This document shows, piece after piece, positions 4,832 to 44,557 of a stretch of DNA of 64,000 bases; positions within the stretch are counted from its first letter, which is position 1; every line of letters begins with the position of its first letter. This DNA comes from a bacterium (GTDB lineage Bacteria > Actinomycetota > Acidimicrobiia > Acidimicrobiales > CATQHL01): contig JAPOVS010000054.1 of the NCBI GenBank assembly GCA_026708055.1, positions 61,697-125,696 on the forward strand, read 5' to 3'. Under the pieces are notes generated by a model. It did not search any database and had not been told where the DNA came from. It was given only the letters and a program-made list of their open reading frames with translations. Made by a program: the position numbers and the translations under genes.

Positions 4832-4922
4832 GGCGTCAACGCTACCGGCGTGCCCGGACAAGGGGGAGCCGGCCAGAACCTTGCGGCCCGGTGGCGACAC
4901 GTCGTACAGTGGACGGTGAAAT

Positions 4923-5008
4923 CGGGGAGCTCGAATTCTCGGGCTGAGAGGGCGGGGCGACTCGCCGACCCGCAGAACCTGATCTGGGTAATTCCAGCGG
5001 AGGGAAGC
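4923..5008 (+). promoter_or_regulatory. TPP (THI-box) riboswitch
   Basis: GGGGAGC..GGCTGAGAG..ACCC..GAACCTGATCTGGGTAATTCCAGCGGAGGGAAG matches the TPP riboswitch core (CUGAGA and ACCUGAUCUGGAUAAUGCCAGCG boxes). Its 3' strand contains the SD (GGAGGGAAG) just before the ATG at 5010. Confidence 0.85.
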
Positions 5009-5009
5009 A

Positions 5010-6203
5010 ATGCGCATTTTCGCGAAGTCTCGTTTTCTTGTCGTCTTGGTGGGCTCAGTTGCGCTGGCGGCGCTCGTCATCGCCGGCTGCGGTGAGGACG
5101 GCGGCACGCCGACCGCACCGGCAGCCGAGACTGCGCCCGCTCCCGAACCGCCGCCGCCGGAGCCGCAACCGCCGGCAGCCCCCGAACCGCAGCCGGCTCC
5201 CGCCCCGGAGCCGCCGCCGGAACCCGCGCCCGAGCCACCACCGCCGCCCGAGCCGGCGGAGATCACGGTGGTCACCCATGACTCCTTCGCCGTCTCGGAG
5301 GGGATCATCGAGTCGTTCGAGGAGAGCACGGGTGTCACGGTGAACCTGCTCACCGGCGAGGACACGGGTTCGATGCTCAGCCAGGTCATCCTTACGAAGG
5401 ACAATCCCATCGCGGATGTCGTATTCGGCATCGACAACACGTTCCTGCAGCGGGCGCTGGACGAGGACCTCTTCCTCCCGTACCGCTCACCGGCCGTCGA
5501 GTCCGTGTCCACTGAGCTGCAGCTCGATGCACAGGACCGGGTCACGCCCATCGACTACGGCGACGTCTGCGTCAACTACTGGATCGACGCCACCGACGGT
5601 GCCCCGCCGGAGACCCTCGAGGACCTGGCAGATCCCCGCCACGCCGGGTCGTTCGTGACCCAGAACCCGGAGACCTCCTCGCCGGGCCTGGCATTCCTGC
5701 TCGCCACGGTGGCGGCGTTCGGCGTCGACGGCTGGGAGGACTACTGGAGCGACTTGCGGGACGGGGGCGTGTCGGTGACCGCCGGCTGGAGCGAGGCGTA
5801 CTTCGGGGAGTTCGTGGCCGGGGGAGGGGAGCGCGCTCTCGTGACCTCCTACGCCACCAGCCCGGTTGCGGAGGTGATCTTCGCCGATCCGCCCACGGAC
5901 ACTCCGCCCACCGGCGTGCTGACCGACGGCTGCTTCCGCCAGATCGAGTTCGCCGGCATCCTGGCGGGCACCGAGAACCTCCCCGGCGCGCAGGCTTTCA
6001 TCGACTTCATGCTCTCCGACACCTTCCAGGAGGACATCCCGCTGAACATGTTCGTCTTCCCCGCCAGCAGCAGTGCGCAGGTGCCGGAGGTGTTCGCCAC
6101 CCATGCGGTCGCGGTTCCCGAACCGCTGAGCCTCGATCCGGCACTCATCGCCGCCGAGCGCGACAACTGGACACGCCGCTGGGTCGAGATCGTCCTGCGC
6201 TAG
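5010..6203 (+). CDS. thiB: thiamine ABC transporter substrate-binding lipoprotein
   Basis: Lipobox LVIAGCG, a Pro-rich linker, then a ThiB/FbpA-type binding fold (ITVVTHDSFAVSEG...). Sits directly downstream of the TPP riboswitch. Confidence 0.8.
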   Translation: MRIFAKSRFLVVLVGSVALAALVIAGCGEDGGTPTAPAAETAPAPEPPPPEPQPPAAPEPQPAPAPEPPPEPAPEPPPPPEPAEITVVTHDSFAVSEGIIESFEESTGVTVNLLTGEDTGSMLSQVILTKDNPIADVVFGIDNTFLQRALDEDLFLPYRSPAVESVSTELQLDAQDRVTPIDYGDVCVNYWIDATDGAPPETLEDLADPRHAGSFVTQNPETSSPGLAFLLATVAAFGVDGWEDYWSDLRDGGVSVTAGWSEAYFGEFVAGGGERALVTSYATSPVAEVIFADPPTDTPPTGVLTDGCFRQIEFAGILAGTENLPGAQAFIDFMLSDTFQEDIPLNMFVFPASSSAQVPEVFATHAVAVPEPLSLDPALIAAERDNWTRRWVEIVLR

Positions 6204-15688: not shown

Positions 15689-17458
15689 TCAACAGCCGCC
15701 GTCGGCGAACGGATTGGAGTTTCTGGGCGGCGTGAGGCTCGGATTCATGAGGAAGTCGCTCCGGCACAGGCCGCCGAACTCTCCCATCAGATTCGACATG
15801 AGTGTGAGATTCCCCACGTTGAACAGCAGATGCCAAAGCGACGCCCCGTCGGTGACGTTGTCGGTGTACCAGGCGGGCACCTCCCCGGCCAGCCCACTGC
15901 GCAGGATGCTCTTCTCCTGCTCGGTGGGCGCATCGGGAGTGCCCGCGCAGGAGGACCCCGGTCCGTAGTACGTCAAAGGGGCTTCGGGAAAACGAGGTGC
16001 ATCATCGTGTCGGCGATGACCTCCTCGCCGCCTGCCCGGCAGCCGGGATAGTTGACGGCGAAGTACAGCTGAGTCGCCCCCCAGGCCCTGTTCGGTGTTA
16101 ATGCGGTGGCCTGGTCGTACACGTGAGCCAACTCGTGGACGCCGACGTGCAGCAACTGTTGCATGGTGCGCTCGCCCAGGTCGGTACCGAGTGCTACCTG
16201 CGATGTCCGGCACTCGAACGTACCCGCATCGAAGAACCCACAACTGACACTGGCGACCCCACCGGATGCCGCCTCGAAAAGTCGGACATCGTCGCGGACG
16301 TGGTCCCAGGCGATGCGCAACCACGGGAACTCCCCCTCGTTCCGGCGCACGACATCATCCATGGCCTCGCGGAACGGACCGGGGTCGATCCTCCATTCCT
16401 CGCTGCTCCAGTCGGGCACGGTGAGAGTGGGGATCACCGTCGGCCGGCCATCCAGCCCCTTCGCTCCCGGTGCCAGGACTTCCGCAGGCGTCAAACGTTG
16501 CTCGGTGTCGCCGACGCCGAGTTGCCCGTAACGATTGTCGCCCCAGCACAGAACCTCGCGCTCCGCCGTGACTGCGCAGGCATGCGAGCCGTCCCAGAAA
16601 GTGCGGCTGCCGACGCTGATCGCGACCACATCGCTGACGTTTCGCAGCTGCTCAGCCCGCGATCTCTGCTCCCTCGTGCCGATGCCCAGTTCGCCCGCGG
16701 CGTTCGCTCCCCAGCAGGAGACCGTCCCGTCCCGGTGCAGCGCGCAGGAGCTGTAGTGGCCCGTGTCCACGGCCACCGCGTCGGTGATGCCGAGCACCGC
16801 GGTTGGCGAGAGTCCTCGTGCCGTCCGCCTTCCTGCACCGAGCAGTCCACTCCGGGAGACCACCGTGGCGCCCCCGTGGAAGTACGCCCTGTCGCTCCCC
16901 CAGCAGGAAATCCCGCCCGACCTCTGCACAGCACAAGTGAAAGTACTGCTCGGTGACACCGAGACCGCATCGTCGATACGGCGCACCTTCACCGGCGAGA
17001 GACGCTCCGACCTCGTTCCGTCGCCGAGTTGTCCGTCGTCGTTGTAACCCCAGCAGGAGGTGGAAGCTGCCCGCCGCGACCAGAGCAGCGCCGGGTTCCG
17101 GCGGAGGTACCTGCGGCGTCTCGGACGGACTCGCGGCGGGCGCAGGGACGGTCACCGTCAGGGTTGAACTCGCCAGCCAGGGCCCCACGCCGGCGGTGGC
17201 GGGGAAGAACCGGCGCGACGGCAACAGCCGCTCGCCCCACGAGCCGTCGGCGTCGCGCTGCTGCAAGCCGAACTCGACGCGACCATCATCCAGGCGCCGC
17301 GCCACGATGCGCACGTCCACCTCCGACGCCCCGCCGGCCGACTCCTCAACGCCCTCCTGCGCCGAACCAGCCGAAGGGATCGCACTGACGGTCAGCACGG
17401 CGATCAACACCGCGGCCGCCGGGCGGACGAACCGCTGAGCGATTGACGACCTCCGCAT
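15689..17458 (-). pseudogene. secreted N-module + RCC1 propeller + HExxH C-terminal domain protein, disrupted by two 1-nt frameshifts
   Basis: Three ORF pieces (16652-17458, 15973-16992, 15689-16324) together are colinear with the 23287-25890 product. The frameshifts are near 17060 (ttccacCtcctgctgg) and near 15998 (gttttccc). Confidence 0.75.
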
Positions 17459-40644: not shown

Positions 40645-43584
40645 TCAACTCGGGCCGAAGCGGGTGTTTCCCTGCCCCCAGCAGACGAGGGTCGCGTCGG
40701 TGCGCAGCGCGCACGAATGTCTCACGCCGGCGGCGATGGCGGTGTAGGAGCCGTCGGGCGCGTCGGCCTGCCCGTGGCCGTTCAGACCCCAGCAGACGAC
40801 AGAGCCGTCGGCGCGCAGAGCGCACGAATGTCGCCCACCCGCGGCGATGGCCGTGTAGGAGCCGTCAGGCGGATCGGCCTGACCCGAGTCGTTCTCCCCC
40901 CAGCAGACGGCCGAACCATCAGTCCGCAGAGCGCACGAATGAACGTCGCCAGCGGCGATGGCGGTGTAGGAACCGTCGGGTGGATCGGCCTGACCCGAAC
41001 CGTCGTCCCCCCAGCAGACGGCCGAACCATCAGTCCGCAGAGCGCACGAATGACTGCCCGAATAATCGCCGCCGGCGGCTATGGCGGTATAGGAACCGTC
41101 GGGCGCGTCGGCCGTCTGACCCGAGTAGTTGTCGCCCCAGCAGACGGCCGCACCATCGGTGCCCAACGCGCACGAATGCCGATAGCCGGCGGCGACGACG
41201 GTGTAGGCGCCCTCGGGAGCGCTGGATTGCCAAAGGTTGTCCAGGCCCCAGCAGACGATCGAGCCGTCGTCCCCCAAGGCGCACGAATGCCACCTGCCGG
41301 CGGCGATTGCGGCATAGGCGCCATCGGGAGCGTCGGTTTGTCCGCTGCTGTTCAGACCCCAGCAGACGATCGAGCCGTCGGCCCTCAAGGCGCACGAATG
41401 CCATCCGCTGGCAGCGACGGCGGTGTAGGCGCCGCTGGGCGGCAATGCCTGCCCGTACGTGTCGAGGCCCCAGCACTCGACACGGCCGTCGGTGTCCAGC
41501 GCGCACGAATGGTCAAAGCCGGCGGCAATGGCGGCGTACGTGCCGTCGGGCGGGAATTCGTGCCCGAAGGTGTATTGACCCCAGCACACGAGTGCGGCGT
41601 CGGTGCGCAGCGCGCACGAATGGTCAAAGCCGGCGGCGATAGCGGTATACGTGCCGTCGGGCGCGTCGGTCTGCCCGAACCCGCCATAGCCCCAGCAGAC
41701 AACGGAGCCGTCGGCGCCCAGCGCGCACGAGTGCGACCTGCCAGCGGCGACGGCGGTATAGGCGCCGTCGGGCGCGTCGGTCAGCCCTTCGCTGTTCTGA
41801 CCCCAGCAGACGACAGAGCCGTCGGCGCCCAATGCGCACGAATGCCACCCACCCGCGGCGACGGCGGTATAGGCGCCGCCGGGCGCGTCGGTCTGCCCGA
41901 ACCCGCCATAGCCCCAGCAGACGACAGAGCCGTCGGCGCGCAGAGCGCACGAATGTCGACCACCCGCGGCGATGGCCGTGTAGGGGCCGTCAGGCGGGTC
42001 GGCCTGACCCGAGTCGTTCTCCCCCCAGCAGACAGCCGAACCATCAGTCCGCAGCGCGCACGAATGAACGTCGCCGGCGGCGATGGCGGTGTAGGAGCCG
42101 TCGGGCGCGTCGGTCTGCCCTTCGTCGTTCTCCCCCCAGCAGACGACAGAGCCGTCGGCGCGCAACGCACAGAAGTGCCGAGCGCCGGCGATAGCTGTGT
42201 AGTAGTCGGCGGGGTCGGTGGGCTGGTCCAGGTCGGCGGATCCCGGGAGTCCGGCGGAGGCTAGATCGGCAGATGGAACACAGACCGCCAATCCCTCGGC
42301 GAGCGCTTCTGGCACAGTGGTCTCGGCACCGACGGTGTCCAGAACGGCCCAGTCGAAGTTGATCGACCAATCCAACAAGCAGGACCGGGCGCCCGCACTC
42401 AAGTCTTCTGGTGACCCGCCAGCCTCCATGAACAACATGTCCAGGAACAGGTCCGGGGCGCACTGGCCGAGACTGGAAGCCAGGGCCGCGAACGCGCCGG
42501 CGTGGGAGGAGATTGATTGGGCGGCAAGGTCGAGGCCGATGGTCCAGATGCGCAAGCAAGTCCAGTCCTCATCGGCCAGCGCGTCGGGATCCACACCGAG
42601 CACCTCGAGCAGGACAGGCAGGACGGGGTCCGGAATGCAGCCGAATATGCCGGCCAGGAAGGCCAGATACTCATCGGCGGCAGCGACGTCATCGGACATC
42701 CCGCCAGAGGGAGTCCAGCCGAGGTCAGCAAACCATTCCCGGATGCAGGCACGCTCCTCGTCTTCCACTTGTTCCCACTCGACTCCCAACAGGAAAAGCG
42801 TCGCGATCACTTCCAGGTCCGGGATGCAGTCCGTCGGGTCCGGAGTCAACGCCTCGATCGCCCCGGGCTCGTCGCCGGCGGCAGCCAAAGCAGCCCAGTC
42901 GAAACCGGCCATTCTCTCTTGCAGGCAGGTTCTCTCGTCGCTGCTCGGCTGATAACCCAGATACACCTCGAGGCTTGCAATGGAGCCGGCGAGAAGCACC
43001 GATGTCGCGACTTCAGGCTCGAAACAAGCGAACAGCGCGACATCGTCTGGCCAGAGTTCGATGCTCACAACTCTCTGTCGCAGCAGCGACTGCAACGGTC
43101 CGTCGTCCAGAACGCGCCGAACGCAGGATTGCTCCTCGAACGAAAGTTCGTCGAACACGTCCTGCCAGACGGTGTCGCCGTCTATCTCGATGCTGCCGGT
43201 CGCACCGGCCTCGGTCGTCTCCGGCACCGTGCCCGCGGGAGAGGGGAGTCGGTCCGGGGACGGAGCGGCCAGGGTCGCAGGCGTCGTCGCAGCAGCAGTC
43301 GCCGGCGGGGGCGACTCGTCCACTGACTGTGTGGGGGGCGACGCCGTAGCGGCCTGCGTTGGCGGACGGCGGGGCCGCGTGGATGGCGACTCGTCCACTG
43401 ACTGTGTGGGGGGCGACGCCGTAGCCCCACCGACGTCCTGCCGTCTGCCGTCTCCGCATGTCACAAGCACCGCGACTACTCCCAGGCACACCAGAATGAG
43501 AGTCGAGAGTCGCCGGCTCCTCGACCGGGCGCTGAACCGCCGAGAGCGGCGCGACATCCACGCGGCGCGGGGAGGGTCGCCCAC
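40645..43584 (-). CDS. large lipoprotein: Pro/Thr linker + Cys-containing helical repeats + about 14 RCC1_2-type repeats
   Basis: Lipobox LVTCG. Four to five repeats of C.(R/E).W...(D)W....C(I/A/V)PD, then Y(T/A)A(I/V)AAG..HSCAL..DGS.VCWG.N..GQ.D.PDG repeated about 14 times. Confidence 0.8.
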   Translation of the reverse strand: MGDPPRAAWMSRRSRRFSARSRSRRLSTLILVCLGVVAVLVTCGDGRRQDVGGATASPPTQSVDESPSTRPRRPPTQAATASPPTQSVDESPPPATAAATTPATLAAPSPDRLPSPAGTVPETTEAGATGSIEIDGDTVWQDVFDELSFEEQSCVRRVLDDGPLQSLLRQRVVSIELWPDDVALFACFEPEVATSVLLAGSIASLEVYLGYQPSSDERTCLQERMAGFDWAALAAAGDEPGAIEALTPDPTDCIPDLEVIATLFLLGVEWEQVEDEERACIREWFADLGWTPSGGMSDDVAAADEYLAFLAGIFGCIPDPVLPVLLEVLGVDPDALADEDWTCLRIWTIGLDLAAQSISSHAGAFAALASSLGQCAPDLFLDMLFMEAGGSPEDLSAGARSCLLDWSINFDWAVLDTVGAETTVPEALAEGLAVCVPSADLASAGLPGSADLDQPTDPADYYTAIAGARHFCALRADGSVVCWGENDEGQTDAPDGSYTAIAAGDVHSCALRTDGSAVCWGENDSGQADPPDGPYTAIAAGGRHSCALRADGSVVCWGYGGFGQTDAPGGAYTAVAAGGWHSCALGADGSVVCWGQNSEGLTDAPDGAYTAVAAGRSHSCALGADGSVVCWGYGGFGQTDAPDGTYTAIAAGFDHSCALRTDAALVCWGQYTFGHEFPPDGTYAAIAAGFDHSCALDTDGRVECWGLDTYGQALPPSGAYTAVAASGWHSCALRADGSIVCWGLNSSGQTDAPDGAYAAIAAGRWHSCALGDDGSIVCWGLDNLWQSSAPEGAYTVVAAGYRHSCALGTDGAAVCWGDNYSGQTADAPDGSYTAIAAGGDYSGSHSCALRTDGSAVCWGDDGSGQADPPDGSYTAIAAGDVHSCALRTDGSAVCWGENDSGQADPPDGSYTAIAAGGRHSCALRADGSVVCWGLNGHGQADAPDGSYTAIAAGVRHSCALRTDATLVCWGQGNTRFGPS

Positions 43585-43588
43585 AGGC

Positions 43589-44557
43589 TCAGGACAGGTG
43601 GTCCAGCAGCAGGTTGACCAGGTCGCTCTCGAACTGGACGGCGCCGAGGATGCGCCGGCCGGTGGTGTCGAGCAGCCAGAAGCTGGACCAGGCGGGCGCC
43701 GGGAAGTGGTAGTAGTTCGTCGGCACCCGGGAGTCGCTCAACAGCATCGTGAAGGTGATCCCGTAGGTGTCGACGAAGGCCTGGTTCGTCGCCAGGTCAC
43801 CGGTCGAGCCGATGCCGACGACCCGGAGCCGGTGGGAGTTCTCTCGAGCGAACTGCTCGATGGCCGGAGCATGGCTCTGGCAGGTGCCTCAATAGGGGCT
43901 CCACAGCCAGAACAGCAGCGGCGTCCGGCCGGTCACGACCGAGCGGATGTTCGCTGTCTCGCCGGTACTCACGTCGACCATGTCGAAGTCGAGCACGTCC
44001 TCGGAGACCTGCACCACGCCCAGGTCGCTTCCGGCGGTCCTCGCGGCGAGCGTCACGGTGACCGGCGCACTGGCCAGCCAGCGGCCCGCCTCCGCGTCTG
44101 CGGGGAAGAACCGCCGCGCCGGCAGGAGCCGCTCGCCCCAGGTCTCACCGGGAAGGCGTTTCTGCAGCGCGAACTCGATGCGATCATCGGCCAACCGCTG
44201 CACGACCACGCGCACCTCCCCCGCCACGTAGGCGGAGGTGGTGCCCGCGTCGGCGGTGATCGTCAACGCAGAGCCGGCTAACCAGACGTCGGCCTCTGCT
44301 CCCGGAGGCAGGAACCGCCGCGGCGGCTCCGCCGACGCGCTCCACGGCTCACCATCCTCGCGGAACTGCACGACGAACTCGACTCGGCCGTCCTCGTGGC
44401 GCTGCGCCAGGATCCGGGCCTCGAGTTCGTGCGCGGCCGGCTGCTCGGTCACCTCTTGGGCGCGGACGGCGACGGGAAGCCCGGCCACGCCCAGCCAGGC
44501 CAGCAGGCCCACCATGACGGCCCGCCAGAGTCGTCCCCGGAGCGGGCGGGACCTCAT
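43589..44557 (-). CDS. secreted N-module (x2) + TlpA/ResA-like thioredoxin-fold protein with in-frame TGA at the CxxC nucleophile (candidate selenoprotein; alternatively a pseudogene)
   Basis: The ORF stops at TGA 43889-43891 in ..PLLFWLWSPY-TGA-GTCQSHAPAIEQF... The same frame stays open for 99 more codons with a redoxin-like sequence, ending at TGA 43589-43591. Confidence 0.6.

What the first reader, a model, noticed from the sequence alone, without database searches (positions are those of the whole stretch)
43589..44557. In-frame TGA exactly at the nucleophilic Cys position of a thioredoxin-fold CxxC motif: candidate selenoprotein fused to the N-module
The minus-strand ORF stops at TGA (43889-43891) in the context ..RTPLLFWLWSPY-TGA-GTCQSHAPAIEQFARENSHRLRVVGIGSTGDLATNQAFVDTYGITFTMLLSDSRVPTNYYHFPAPAWSSFWLLDTTGRRILG... 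The same frame then continues without a stop for 99 codons to 43589.

The joined sequence aligns by eye with TlpA/ResA-type redoxins (..NFWGTWCEPC..VAVNV....FM..YG..FPV..D......P.PTTFLI...G). The TGA falls on the first Cys of W-C-x-x-C, giving U-G-T-C.

Sec replacing the redox Cys is the established hallmark of bacterial selenoproteins. It requires a SECIS hairpin just 3' of the UGA. Two hairpins can be drawn on the mRNA:
- GCC-A-GAGC/CAU/GCUC-C-GGC at 43863-43881
- UCGAGC/AGUUC/GCUCGA at 43844-43860, with GU in its apical loop about 36 nt after the UGA. That spacing is at the far edge of what I recall for bacterial SECIS elements.

No selA, selB, selC or selD is present in this window. The alternative explanation is a TGC-to-TGA nonsense mutation, making this a pseudogene. 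The gene ends 4 nt before the start of the 40645-43584 lipoprotein gene, so the two probably form an operon.
Basis: partly seen in the sequence, partly recalled or inferred. Interest (0 to 1): 0.8.

Follow-up and report, generated by a model that had tools for sequence, protein, structure and literature searches.

The report
Secreted selenocysteine thiol-disulfide oxidoreductase gene
The "stop" codon in the middle of this gene is almost certainly read as selenocysteine, giving an exported redox enzyme that public annotation currently splits into two "hypothetical proteins"; this type of selenoprotein is already known.

Summary
The minus-strand gene 43589-44557 has an in-frame TGA (43889-43891) at the first Cys of a thioredoxin-fold CxxC motif (U-G-T-C).

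- **Conserved codon.** Among relatives found by protein motif, 154 have TGA at this column, never TAA or TAG. More distant relatives have TGC or TGT (29).
- **Downstream coding.** The frame always continues for about 98 codons. It is strongly conserved and has coding-type GC periodicity. There is no start codon for 46 codons after the TGA.
- **Not a code change.** TGA is also this genome's commonest true stop, so the codon is not reassigned.
- **SECIS.** It is frozen at synonymous sites and shows one compensatory C-G to U-A change. It is present in 17/18 TGA forms against 1/29 Cys forms.
- **Accessory helix.** The first hairpin is probably an accessory helix.

The closest solved relatives are M. 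tuberculosis MPT53/DsbE and DsbF. The pseudogene reading is refuted.

Not shown: selA/B/C/D in the same genome. They are absent from the window and could not be tested with these tools.

UxxC TlpA-like selenoproteins have been known since 2005, so this is a new member of a known kind. It is widespread in Acidimicrobiia and unannotated there.

The parts
43589..44557 (-). Complete selenoprotein gene: 322 codons including Sec-UGA, plus the terminal TGA stop at 43589-43591
   Evidence: Searches show the ORF and the read-through frame. Redoxin domain spans the TGA; orthologs have the same geometry. NCBI splits it into OXG55_12020 (222 aa) and OXG55_12015 (50 aa).
44459..44557 (-). Predicted N-terminal signal peptide (residues 1-33: Arg-rich n-region, hydrophobic core AVMVGLLAWLGVAGLPVAV, then VRA|QE)
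   Evidence: Read directly from the translation. pLDDT is below 50 for residues 1-39. No signal-peptide predictor was available, so this is an inference.
44243..44428 (-). N-module repeat 1 (residues ~44-105), all-beta
   Evidence: self-alignment of the two repeats scores 136. AF2 pLDDT 88-97; no Pfam or NCBIfam family; no PDB fold match.
44036..44221 (-). N-module repeat 2 (residues ~113-174), all-beta
   Evidence: the same module is fused to RCC1, LRR, trypsin, DsbA and CAP domains in other proteins (P0069-P0120).
43592..44002 (-). Thioredoxin-fold (TlpA-like, MPT53/DsbE-type) redoxin domain, residues ~186-322
   Evidence: Pfam Redoxin, AhpC-TSA and Thioredoxin hits; 1LU4 at E 1.9e-10 and 3IOS at 5.1e-09; only sub-threshold NCBIfam ResA/DsbE/TlpA hits.
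43880..43891 (-). Redox motif U223-G-T-C226. The Sec codon TGA is at 43889-43891. C226 is the only Cys in the protein.
43863..43881 (-). Hairpin H1 (GCC-A-GAGC / CAU / GCUC-C-GGC), an accessory or spacer helix between the UGA and the SECIS
   Evidence: -9.5 kcal/mol, loop CAU, and it fails the bSECIS loop-G and spacing criteria here; the region folds better than synonymous resamples in TGA forms (z -1.97) but not in Cys forms (z -0.18); it forms from different sequences and in different registers across subfamilies.
43844..43860 (-). Hairpin H2, the predicted bacterial SECIS element (UCGAGC / AGUUC / GCUCGA); the apical loop starts 34 nt after the UGA
   Evidence: meets all 4 bSECIS criteria; synonymous sites are frozen; z -3.85; 17/18 TGA forms against 1/29 Cys forms, p 1.1e-10; compensatory C-G to U-A change; all 157 occurrences of the core lie 33 nt after an in-frame TGA.
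40645..43584 (-). Context only: the downstream gene for a 979-aa exported RCC1-repeat protein with 40 Cys (two per repeat), a possible substrate
   Evidence: RCC1_2 x14; 4.1% Cys against 1.4% in neighbouring genes; not adjacent in L001, L003 or L004.

Best explanation
This is one intact gene for an exported selenoprotein.

**Architecture.** Signal peptide, then a tandem all-beta N-module, then a TlpA-like (MPT53/DsbE-type) thioredoxin-fold domain. The redox centre of that domain is U223-G-T-C226.

**Decoding.** When the ribosome reaches UGA 43889-43891, Sec-tRNA(Sec) is delivered by SelB. SelB is bound to the mRNA hairpin UCGAGC/AGUUC/GCUCGA (43844-43860), whose loop lies 34 nt downstream of the UGA. 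Selenocysteine is inserted and translation runs on for 99 codons to the true stop, also a TGA, at 43589-43591. A second helix (43863-43881) sits between the UGA and the SECIS. It probably sets the geometry or slows the ribosome.

**Function.** Outside the cytoplasm, the selenolate attacks substrate disulfides and forms a selenenylsulfide with C226. The protein would then act as a fast thiol-disulfide oxidoreductase or isomerase for envelope or secreted proteins. The N-module probably holds it at the cell surface. The Cys-rich RCC1-repeat proteins of these bacteria are candidate clients.

**Shown.** The conserved in-frame TGA, the Sec/Cys pair, downstream coding, the hairpin specific to TGA forms that fits the bSECIS model, and the use of TGA as a normal stop elsewhere in the genome.

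**Inferred.** SelB/Sec machinery in this genome, export, direction of redox chemistry, the role of the N-module, and substrate identity.
For: 1. **TGA conserved.** About 50 homologs with 64-100% identity are all called at 222 aa (or 207/208 aa), so they are truncated at the same residue. Among family members found by protein motif alone, the codon is TGA in 154, TGC in 28, TGT in 1, and never TAA or TAG.
2. **Sec/Cys pair.** P0070/L005 and 28 others have Cys at this column.
3. **Downstream part is coding.**
   - The frame stays open for a median of 98 codons in 150 loci.
   - There are no stops or frameshifts in 8 orthologs, and the protein is conserved at least as well as the upstream part.
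   - GC3 is 0.95 in frame.
   - There is no ATG, GTG or TTG in the first 46 codons after the TGA.
4. **No codon reassignment.** 22 of 35 confident ORFs in the window end in TGA, and this gene's own terminator is TGA.
5. **SECIS (H2).**
   - H2 meets the loop, stem, loop-G, spacing and energy criteria of the bSECIS model (PMC13188914) in 15/16 independently found TGA forms.
   - Its codons are frozen (xTC GAG CAG TTY GCT CGR), while the Ala codon at +7 varies freely.
   - Its z-score against synonymous resamples is -3.85, compared with -0.63 in Cys forms.
   - The stem is fully paired in 17/18 TGA forms and 1/29 Cys forms, p = 1.1e-10.
   - One stem pair changes C-G to U-A in 5 distinct paralog sequences, with no one-sided intermediates.
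   - The Cys form L005 encodes the same LEQFAR peptide with hairpin-breaking synonymous codons.
6. **Multiple copies.** Several genomes carry 2-3 TGA-form paralogs.
7. **Sec decoding in the class.** It is documented in Actinomarinales, which belong to the class Acidimicrobiia (10.64898/2026.04.03.716425).
8. **Fold and family.**
Against: - No selA, selB, selD or tRNA-Sec was found in the window or in about 1.16 Mb of related loci.
- Rfam finds no SECIS family here. Rfam is known to cover bacterial SECIS elements poorly.
- The 76-nt region as a whole folds no better than dinucleotide shuffles (z = 0.23).
- Four of the six H2 stem pairs never vary. In loci L045-L164 that invariance was imposed by my search pattern.
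- The loop is 34 nt from the UGA, near the upper limit of the model's range.
- There is no experimental evidence for selenium incorporation.
Confidence: 0.88

Rival explanations
1. Non-selenocysteine recoding. The conserved UGA is read through with another amino acid. This could be Cys delivered by a tRNA(Sec)-like or SelB-like 'recoding with cysteine' system, or near-cognate Trp or Cys read-through stimulated by the downstream hairpins. The product would be a full-length CxxC or WxxC protein without selenium.
For: Sec machinery was not found in any sequence I could read. All comparative evidence shows that the UGA is decoded and that a hairpin is needed. It does not show which amino acid is inserted. 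That Cys-inserting tRNA(Sec)-like systems have been reported in bacteria is my own recollection and was not checked here.
Against: - The UGA sits on the catalytic Cys of CxxC, the classic Sec position.
- H2 fits the SelB-type bSECIS model, including a G-U in a small apical loop at 16-37 nt.
- If Cys were wanted, TGC would do without the hairpin, as in the 29 Cys forms. Once TGC is present the hairpin decays (L005).
- Sec machinery is universal in another order of the same class.
Confidence: 0.06
2. Two separate products. The TGA is a genuine, conserved stop, so the 222-aa N-module protein is the functional product. The downstream 99 codons are translated independently, by re-initiation or as a small ORF, or not at all.
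For: Gene callers and NCBI annotate the region this way. A 52-aa ATG ORF exists at 43589-43747.
Against: - This would cut a thioredoxin fold between strand beta1 and the active-site helix, removing both the redox residue position and the resolving Cys.
- The first 46 codons after the TGA have no start codon, yet they are the most conserved part of the protein.
- The two parts are in the same frame in 154/154 cases.
- Cys homologs are single continuous proteins.
Confidence: 0.02
3. Pseudogene or error. A TGC-to-TGA nonsense mutation, or a sequencing or assembly error, in this one genome.
For: It takes a single-base change from TGC. The window comes from a MAG.
Against: The same TGA is present in 154 family members from more than 100 Acidimicrobiia assemblies, including long-read complete chromosomes. 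The downstream frame is intact and conserved, and the hairpin is under selection.
Confidence: 0.01

Closest known systems
[quoted passage not shown]
   Same: - Thioredoxin or Redoxin fold, with Sec replacing the N-terminal Cys of CxxC.
- Widespread Cys homologs.
- A small hairpin with a loop G after the UGA.
- Aquatic or marine bacteria.
- Some members carry fused domains of unknown function.
   Different: I could not compare sequences with the published representatives (for example MGB1650493.1), so identity with one of those families is untested. This clade is confined almost entirely to Acidimicrobiia. It has a nearly invariant SECIS sequence encoded by [ILV]-E-Q-F-A-R. In this subclade it also carries a tandem N-module with no known relatives. 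No NCBIfam model reaches its cutoff, and NCBI annotates the gene as two hypothetical proteins.
Mycobacterium tuberculosis MPT53 (DsbE, PDB 1LU4) and DsbF (PDB 3IOS), secreted actinobacterial thiol-disulfide oxidoreductases
   Same: These are the best sequence matches among solved structures (E 1.9e-10 and 5.1e-09). They share the active-site context (L/V)WFW(T/A)PWCxxC..EAP. They are actinobacterial, exported, single-domain TlpA-like folds.
   Different: They use Cys, not Sec. They lack the N-module. Identity is only about 30-35% over about 90 residues. Their reported oxidase-like behaviour is my recollection and was not checked here, so it cannot simply be transferred.
ResA (B. subtilis), TlpA (Bradyrhizobium) and CcmG/DsbE (E. 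coli), extracytoplasmic reductases of cytochrome c or CuA maturation
   Same: Same superfamily, exported, with a CxxC motif at the same structural position.
   Different: The matches are much weaker: ResA E about 0.008 in the PDB search, and NCBIfam ResA, DsbE and TlpA far below their cutoffs. No ccdA, resB or resC genes were seen next to the gene in the loci inspected.
Canonical bacterial SECIS (E. coli fdhF type; consensus model of Zhang and Gladyshev as summarised in PMC13188914)
   Same: A stem-loop within the coding region just 3' of the UGA. It has a 5-nt apical loop with G-U at positions 2-3, a 6-7 bp upper stem, -8.8 kcal/mol, and the loop 34 nt from the UGA. All four model criteria are met.
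   Different: The spacing is near the upper limit. A separate, independently selected helix (H1) fills the space between the UGA and the SECIS, rather than one continuous extended stem. The sequence is almost invariant across a whole bacterial class.

Membership tests
Bacterial selenoprotein gene (SelB/SECIS-dependent UGA recoding) | In-frame UGA at a position occupied by Cys in homologs (Sec/Cys pair) | tested here: met
   154 TGA, 28 TGC and 1 TGT at the same column. The column is the first Cys of CxxC in MPT53.
Bacterial selenoprotein gene (SelB/SECIS-dependent UGA recoding) | Reading frame conserved and under coding constraint downstream of the UGA | tested here: met
   Median 98 codons open in 150 loci. 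No stops or frameshifts in orthologs. GC3 is 0.95 in frame. No start codon for 46 codons after the TGA.
Bacterial selenoprotein gene (SelB/SECIS-dependent UGA recoding) | bSECIS hairpin: 3-9 nt loop, 4-16 bp stem, G in the first two loop positions, 16-37 nt from the UGA, MFE <= -7.5 kcal/mol | tested here: met
   For H2 in the window: loop AGUUC, 6 bp, 34 nt, -8.8 kcal/mol. The criteria are met in 15/16 protein-found TGA forms. H2 is specific to TGA forms. One compensatory pair was found.
Bacterial selenoprotein gene (SelB/SECIS-dependent UGA recoding) | selA, selB, selD and tRNA-Sec present in the same genome | not testable with these tools
   Absent from the 64-kb window and from about 1.16 Mb of related loci. 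Sec machinery is reported in Actinomarinales of the same class.
Bacterial selenoprotein gene (SelB/SECIS-dependent UGA recoding) | UGA is otherwise a stop codon in the organism (no code reassignment) | tested here: met
   TGA ends 22 of 35 confident ORFs in the window, and TAG ends 13. The gene itself terminates at a TGA.
Bacterial selenoprotein gene (SelB/SECIS-dependent UGA recoding) | Selenium shown in the protein (75Se labelling or mass spectrometry) | not testable with these tools
   This requires an experiment.
TlpA-like thioredoxin-fold family (cd02966; Pfam Redoxin/AhpC-TSA clan) | Sequence match to the family model across the active site | tested here: met
   Pfam Redoxin scores 27.7 bits against a cutoff of 26.6, over residues 190-275. 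PDB matches 1LU4 and 3IOS have E <= 5e-09.
TlpA-like thioredoxin-fold family (cd02966; Pfam Redoxin/AhpC-TSA clan) | C/U-x-x-C redox motif following the W-x-P/W context at the start of helix 1 | tested here: met
   WLWSPY-U-GTC aligns with WFWTPW-C-PFC.
TlpA-like thioredoxin-fold family (cd02966; Pfam Redoxin/AhpC-TSA clan) | Thioredoxin fold confirmed by a 3-D model of the whole domain | not tested
   Only the N-terminal 222 aa were modelled, because the joined sequence is not accepted as a window protein. The fold is inferred from sequence homology.
ResA / CcmG / TlpA cytochrome-maturation reductases (functional subfamily) | Passes the curated equivalog or subfamily model | tested here: not met
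   NCBIfam scores against cutoffs: ResA 23.9 bits (170), DsbE 20.2 (359), TlpA 17.7 (230).
ResA / CcmG / TlpA cytochrome-maturation reductases (functional subfamily) | Genomic linkage to ccdA/dsbD and resBC/ccm genes | tested here: not met
   Neighbours are ADH, methyltransferase, amidohydrolase, glyoxalase, Rieske and RCC1 genes. Other loci show amidohydrolase, HIT, gyrase A, GcvT and LysM. Only a few loci were inspected.
Published 'Thiol-disulfide isomerase-like' / 'Trx-like 1' / 'Prx-like 3' selenoprotein families | Sequence similarity to the published representatives | not tested
   The representative sequences (for example MGB1650493.1) were not available to the tools. Only the domain assignment (cd02966, PF08534, COG0526) and the UxxC motif agree.

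The most novel reading that the evidence does not exclude
The UGA is decoded, but not by the canonical Sec pathway. These Acidimicrobiia would use the invariant UCGAGC/AGUUY/GCUCGA hairpin, plus the upstream helix, with a non-standard factor or tRNA. The inserted residue would be Cys or another amino acid, or Sec insertion would be switchable with selenium supply. My evidence proves hairpin-dependent decoding of the UGA. It does not identify the inserted residue or show that selA/B/C/D are present in these genomes.
Probability: 0.05. Interest if true: 0.75.

Novelty: new member of a known kind. Interest (0 to 1): 0.4.

Why it matters
**Annotation.** The gene is recorded in NCBI and in every sibling MAG as two "hypothetical proteins". 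The same error affects more than 100 Acidimicrobiia species. A simple DNA signature, TGA-N28-TCGAGCAGTTYGCTCG, recovers the family with 149 true hits out of 150 and could be used to correct it.

**Biology.** The result implies that selenocysteine decoding is widespread in Acidimicrobiales, Ilumatobacteraceae, Iamiaceae and sponge-associated lineages. In the literature I could search, Sec use in this class is described only for Actinomarina.

**Coding constraint.** An RNA element visibly constrains the protein sequence. The peptide [ILV]EQFAR is held fixed by the SECIS, and the hairpin decays once Sec is replaced by Cys.

**Limits.** The enzyme type itself, a UxxC thioredoxin-fold selenoprotein, is the commonest kind of bacterial selenoprotein, so a specialist would not be surprised.

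Tried and rejected
- **Rfam.** Gathering thresholds on the whole window and E-value mode on 43500-44100 gave no SECIS family, only chance hits with E > 1. This is uninformative, because Rfam covers bacterial SECIS elements poorly.
- **Folding 43820-43895 against dinucleotide shuffles.** z = 0.23. This test is too blunt for GC-rich coding sequence. I replaced it with synonymous-codon resampling.
- **RNAalifold on 143 TGA forms.** It recovers H2 but not H1, because H1 pairs in different registers. I therefore do not claim column-wise covariation for H1.
- **Search for Sec machinery.** I ran ARAGORN on the window and all loci. Neither found anything in about 1.16 Mb. I considered seeding the large protein search with E. 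coli Sel proteins and matching contig lengths. I rejected that because the top-120 limit would return only enterobacterial hits.
- **Other selenoprotein genes in the window.** The two other TGA sites with coding periodicity on both sides (15691 minus strand, 48922 plus strand) are out-of-frame or antisense artefacts.
- **H2 core outside this family.** No occurrences.
- **N-module.** No Pfam or NCBIfam family, and no Foldseek match in the PDB.
- **Conserved operon partners (ccdA, resBC, VKOR).** None were seen.
- **Literature on Sec in Acidimicrobiales, Ilumatobacter, Poriferisocius.** Nothing found.
Full report
**1. The observation.**

On the minus strand an ORF runs from ATG 44557 to TGA 43889-43891 (222 aa). 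The same frame then continues for 99 codons to a second TGA at 43589-43591. Joined, the 322-aa protein passes Pfam Redoxin (27.7 bits, cutoff 26.6) over residues 190-275, so the match spans the TGA.

The best solved relatives are M. tuberculosis MPT53/DsbE (1LU4, E 1.9e-10) and DsbF (3IOS, 5.1e-09). In those alignments 'WFWTPW-C-PFC' lies over 'WLWSPY-TGA-GTC'.

Both hairpins exist at the stated coordinates. The window contains no tRNA and no recognisable sel gene.

**2. Is the TGA an accident?**

No. A protein search returned about 50 homologs of 64-100% identity. All are called at 222 aa (or 207/208 aa from a later start) and cover 69% of the joined query. Every one ends at ...LLFWLWSPY.

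I fetched DNA for orthologs from 3.2-3.8 Mb contigs. In each, the codon is TGA and the frame continues for 98-99 codons of highly conserved sequence.

A metagenome scan and a genome-collection scan widened the picture. Among all family members recognised by protein motif alone, the active-site codon is TGA in 154, TGC in 28 and TGT in 1. It is never TAA or TAG. About 38 different U-x-x-C variants occur. Some genomes carry two or three TGA-form paralogs, sometimes in tandem (L004, L010, OZ244832.1).

The Cys forms include P0070/L005 (CSVC), a close relative of the TGA forms. This is the classic Sec/Cys pair.

**3. Is the downstream part translated?**

- It has GC1/2/3 = 0.60/0.46/0.95 in the frame of the TGA.
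- It has no stops or frameshifts in eight orthologs.
- Its median length is 98 codons in 150 loci.
- It contains no ATG, GTG or TTG in the first 46 codons after the TGA. Those codons hold the resolving Cys and the most conserved residues.
- Upstream and downstream parts are in the same frame in 154 of 154 cases.
- A product stopping at residue 222 would cut the thioredoxin fold at its active site.

**4. Is TGA reassigned?**

No. Of 35 confident ORFs in the window, 22 end in TGA and 13 in TAG. This gene itself terminates at a TGA.

**5. The recoding signal.**

All TGA forms carry NTCGAGCAGTTYGCTCGR starting 28 nt after the TGA.

*Frozen synonymous sites.* In the 16 distinct TGA-form sequences found by protein similarity alone, the six codons are xTC GAG CAG TTY GCT CGR. 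The only variable positions are one loop base and the closing U-A/U-G pair. An Ala codon seven codons after the TGA varies freely.

*Published criteria.* H2 meets every criterion of the published bSECIS model (PMC13188914). Those criteria are a 3-9 nt loop, a 4-16 bp stem, G in the first two loop positions, 16-37 nt from the UGA, and an energy of -7.5 kcal/mol or lower. It does so in 15 of the 16 sequences. In the window copy the loop is AGUUC, the stem 6 bp, the spacing 34 nt and the energy -8.8 kcal/mol.

*Synonymous resampling.* Against resamples that encode the same peptide, H2 scores z = -3.85 in TGA forms and -0.63 in Cys forms.

*Specificity to TGA forms.* In the unbiased set, a fully paired stem is present in 17/18 TGA forms and 1/29 Cys forms (Fisher p = 1.1e-10).

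*Compensatory change.* Paralogs that my DNA pattern could not have selected show UUGAGC...GCUCA(A/G). This is a C-G to U-A double change with no one-sided intermediates. It is accepted even though it turns Arg into Gln.

*Natural control.* The Cys form L005 encodes the identical peptide LEQFAR, but with CTG...GCC codons that break the stem.

*Exclusive association.* All 157 occurrences of the 13-nt core in 1.16 Mb lie exactly 33 nt after an in-frame TGA.

*Caveats.*
- In loci L045-L164 the inner five pairs were imposed by my search pattern.
- The sequences are related by descent.
- Four of the six pairs never vary.

**6. Hairpin 1 (43863-43881).**

H1 fails the SECIS criteria in this copy: its loop is CAU and its spacing 15 nt. 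It meets them in only 2/16 sequences.

The region still folds better than synonymous resamples in TGA forms (z = -1.97, with 59% in the top 5%). Cys forms do not show this (z = -0.18), nor does a control stretch. H1 forms from different sequences and registers in different subfamilies. I read it as an accessory or spacer helix. This is an inference.

**7. What the protein is.**

*Signal peptide.* Residues 1-33 look like a signal peptide: an Arg-rich start, a hydrophobic core, then VRA|QE. This is read from the sequence and was not run through a predictor.

*N-module.* Residues ~44-174 are a tandem duplication of an all-beta unit of about 62 aa. AlphaFold2 models it with pLDDT 88-97. It has no Pfam, NCBIfam or PDB relative. 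The same module is fused to RCC1, LRR, trypsin-like, DsbA and CAP domains in other proteins of these bacteria. In another family member (L062) an SLH cell-wall-binding domain takes its place. This suggests the module has an envelope-anchoring or targeting role.

*Redoxin domain.* It belongs to the TlpA-like superfamily. It is nearest to MPT53/DsbE and DsbF. It fails the curated ResA, DsbE and TlpA models and is not linked to ccdA or resBC. U223 and C226 are the protein's only selenol or thiol residues.

**8. Context.**

The upstream genes (zinc-ADH, methyltransferase, amidohydrolase) are syntenic with L003 and L004. The downstream RCC1-repeat gene (40645-43584) is not: orthologous loci have glyoxalase genes there. 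The proposed operon is therefore specific to this genome.

That neighbour is an exported protein with 40 Cys, two per RCC1 repeat (4.1%, against 1.4% in nearby genes). RCC1-repeat genes recur within 10 kb in the orthologous loci. A client relationship is plausible but unproven.

**9. Organisms.**

NCBI records the window's gene as OXG55_12020 plus OXG55_12015 in a MAG labelled 'bacterium'. Nearly all are in Acidimicrobiia MAGs: Ilumatobacteraceae, Iamiaceae, Ca. Aldehydirespiratoraceae, Ca. Poriferisocius, and bins whose names suggest a sponge origin. One is in Jiangellaceae.

**10. What is not shown.**

The Sec machinery was not found, because I could only read about 1.2 Mb around the genes. 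No sel-gene seed close to Acidimicrobiia was available for the protein search.

Sec machinery is reported as universal in Actinomarinales, another order of the class. I found no paper on Sec use in the orders that carry this gene. A non-Sec decoding of the UGA therefore cannot be formally excluded. I give it about 6%.

**11. Comparison with what is known.**

UxxC thioredoxin-fold selenoproteins have been described since 2005-2008. They include a 'thiol-disulfide isomerase-like' TlpA-type family (cd02966) and Redoxin-type 'Prx-like 3'. Some have fused unknown domains.

This gene works like those and is very probably one of them or a sister clade. I could not compare sequences with the published representatives.

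New here:
- the breadth of the family within Acidimicrobiia;
- the nearly invariant SECIS that fixes the peptide [ILV]EQFAR;
- the two-helix arrangement;
- the N-module fusion;
- the systematic mis-annotation in public records.

**12. Verdict.**

Confidence is 0.88 that this is a Sec-decoded gene. It is a new member of a known kind, and its interest is moderate (0.4).

Noticed in passing
window 44036-44428 (minus strand): The N-terminal module is a tandem all-beta repeat of about 62 aa. AlphaFold2 models it with high confidence, but it has no Pfam, NCBIfam or PDB relative. The same module is fused to RCC1, LRR, trypsin-like, DsbA and CAP domains in many other Acidimicrobiia proteins (P0069-P0120). 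It may be an uncharacterised surface-targeting domain.
   Followed up: partly
window 40645-43584 (minus strand): This gene encodes a 979-aa exported RCC1-repeat protein: 14 RCC1_2 repeats, a lipobox-like LVTC, and 40 Cys arranged as HSCAL...VCWG twice per repeat. Its N-terminal region also contains a duplicated ASPPTQSVDESP stretch. It is a possible client of the adjacent Sec-oxidoreductase. A second RCC1-like ORF lies at 15973-16992 (minus strand).
   Followed up: partly
window 4913-5022 (plus strand): A TPP riboswitch (RF00059, 61.5 bits, above its gathering score). It was the only Rfam family found in the window.
   Followed up: no
L005 762-830 (Logan SRR33343637 contig; protein P0070): This Cys form (CSVC) keeps the peptide LEQFAR but has two synonymous changes (CTG, GCC) that break the SECIS stem. 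It looks like a recent Sec-to-Cys conversion followed by decay of the RNA element.
   Followed up: partly
L004 8979-11040; L010 3091 and 4075; L089, L093, L103, L117; OZ244832.1 (L047, L111): Several genomes carry two or three TGA-form paralogs, often in tandem, with different x-x residues (for example ULTC next to UGIC). The family is expanding by duplication while keeping Sec.
   Followed up: partly
L059, L081, L111, L121, L122, L146 (second copies): A paralog subgroup has the SECIS variant UUGAGC/AGUUC/GCUCA(A/G), encoding EQFAQ instead of EQFAR. A protein residue changed in step with a compensatory RNA base-pair change.
   Followed up: yes
L062 5466-6287 (minus strand; Acidimicrobiales OZ241331.1): In this family member the part upstream of the Sec codon contains an S-layer homology (SLH) domain instead of the N-module. 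The same locus holds a second TGA-form copy with a GGUUC loop (IERFAR).
   Followed up: no
window 15691 (minus strand) and 48922 (plus strand): These are the only other in-frame TGAs in the window with coding-like GC periodicity on both sides. Both are artefacts: an Arg-rich out-of-frame translation between real genes, and the antisense strand of the zinc-ADH gene.
   Followed up: yes
L110 (JBOGDS010000136.1, Jiangellaceae MAG): This is the single hit to the TGA-plus-hairpin signature outside Acidimicrobiia (UPRC form). It could reflect horizontal transfer or a mis-binned contig.
   Followed up: no
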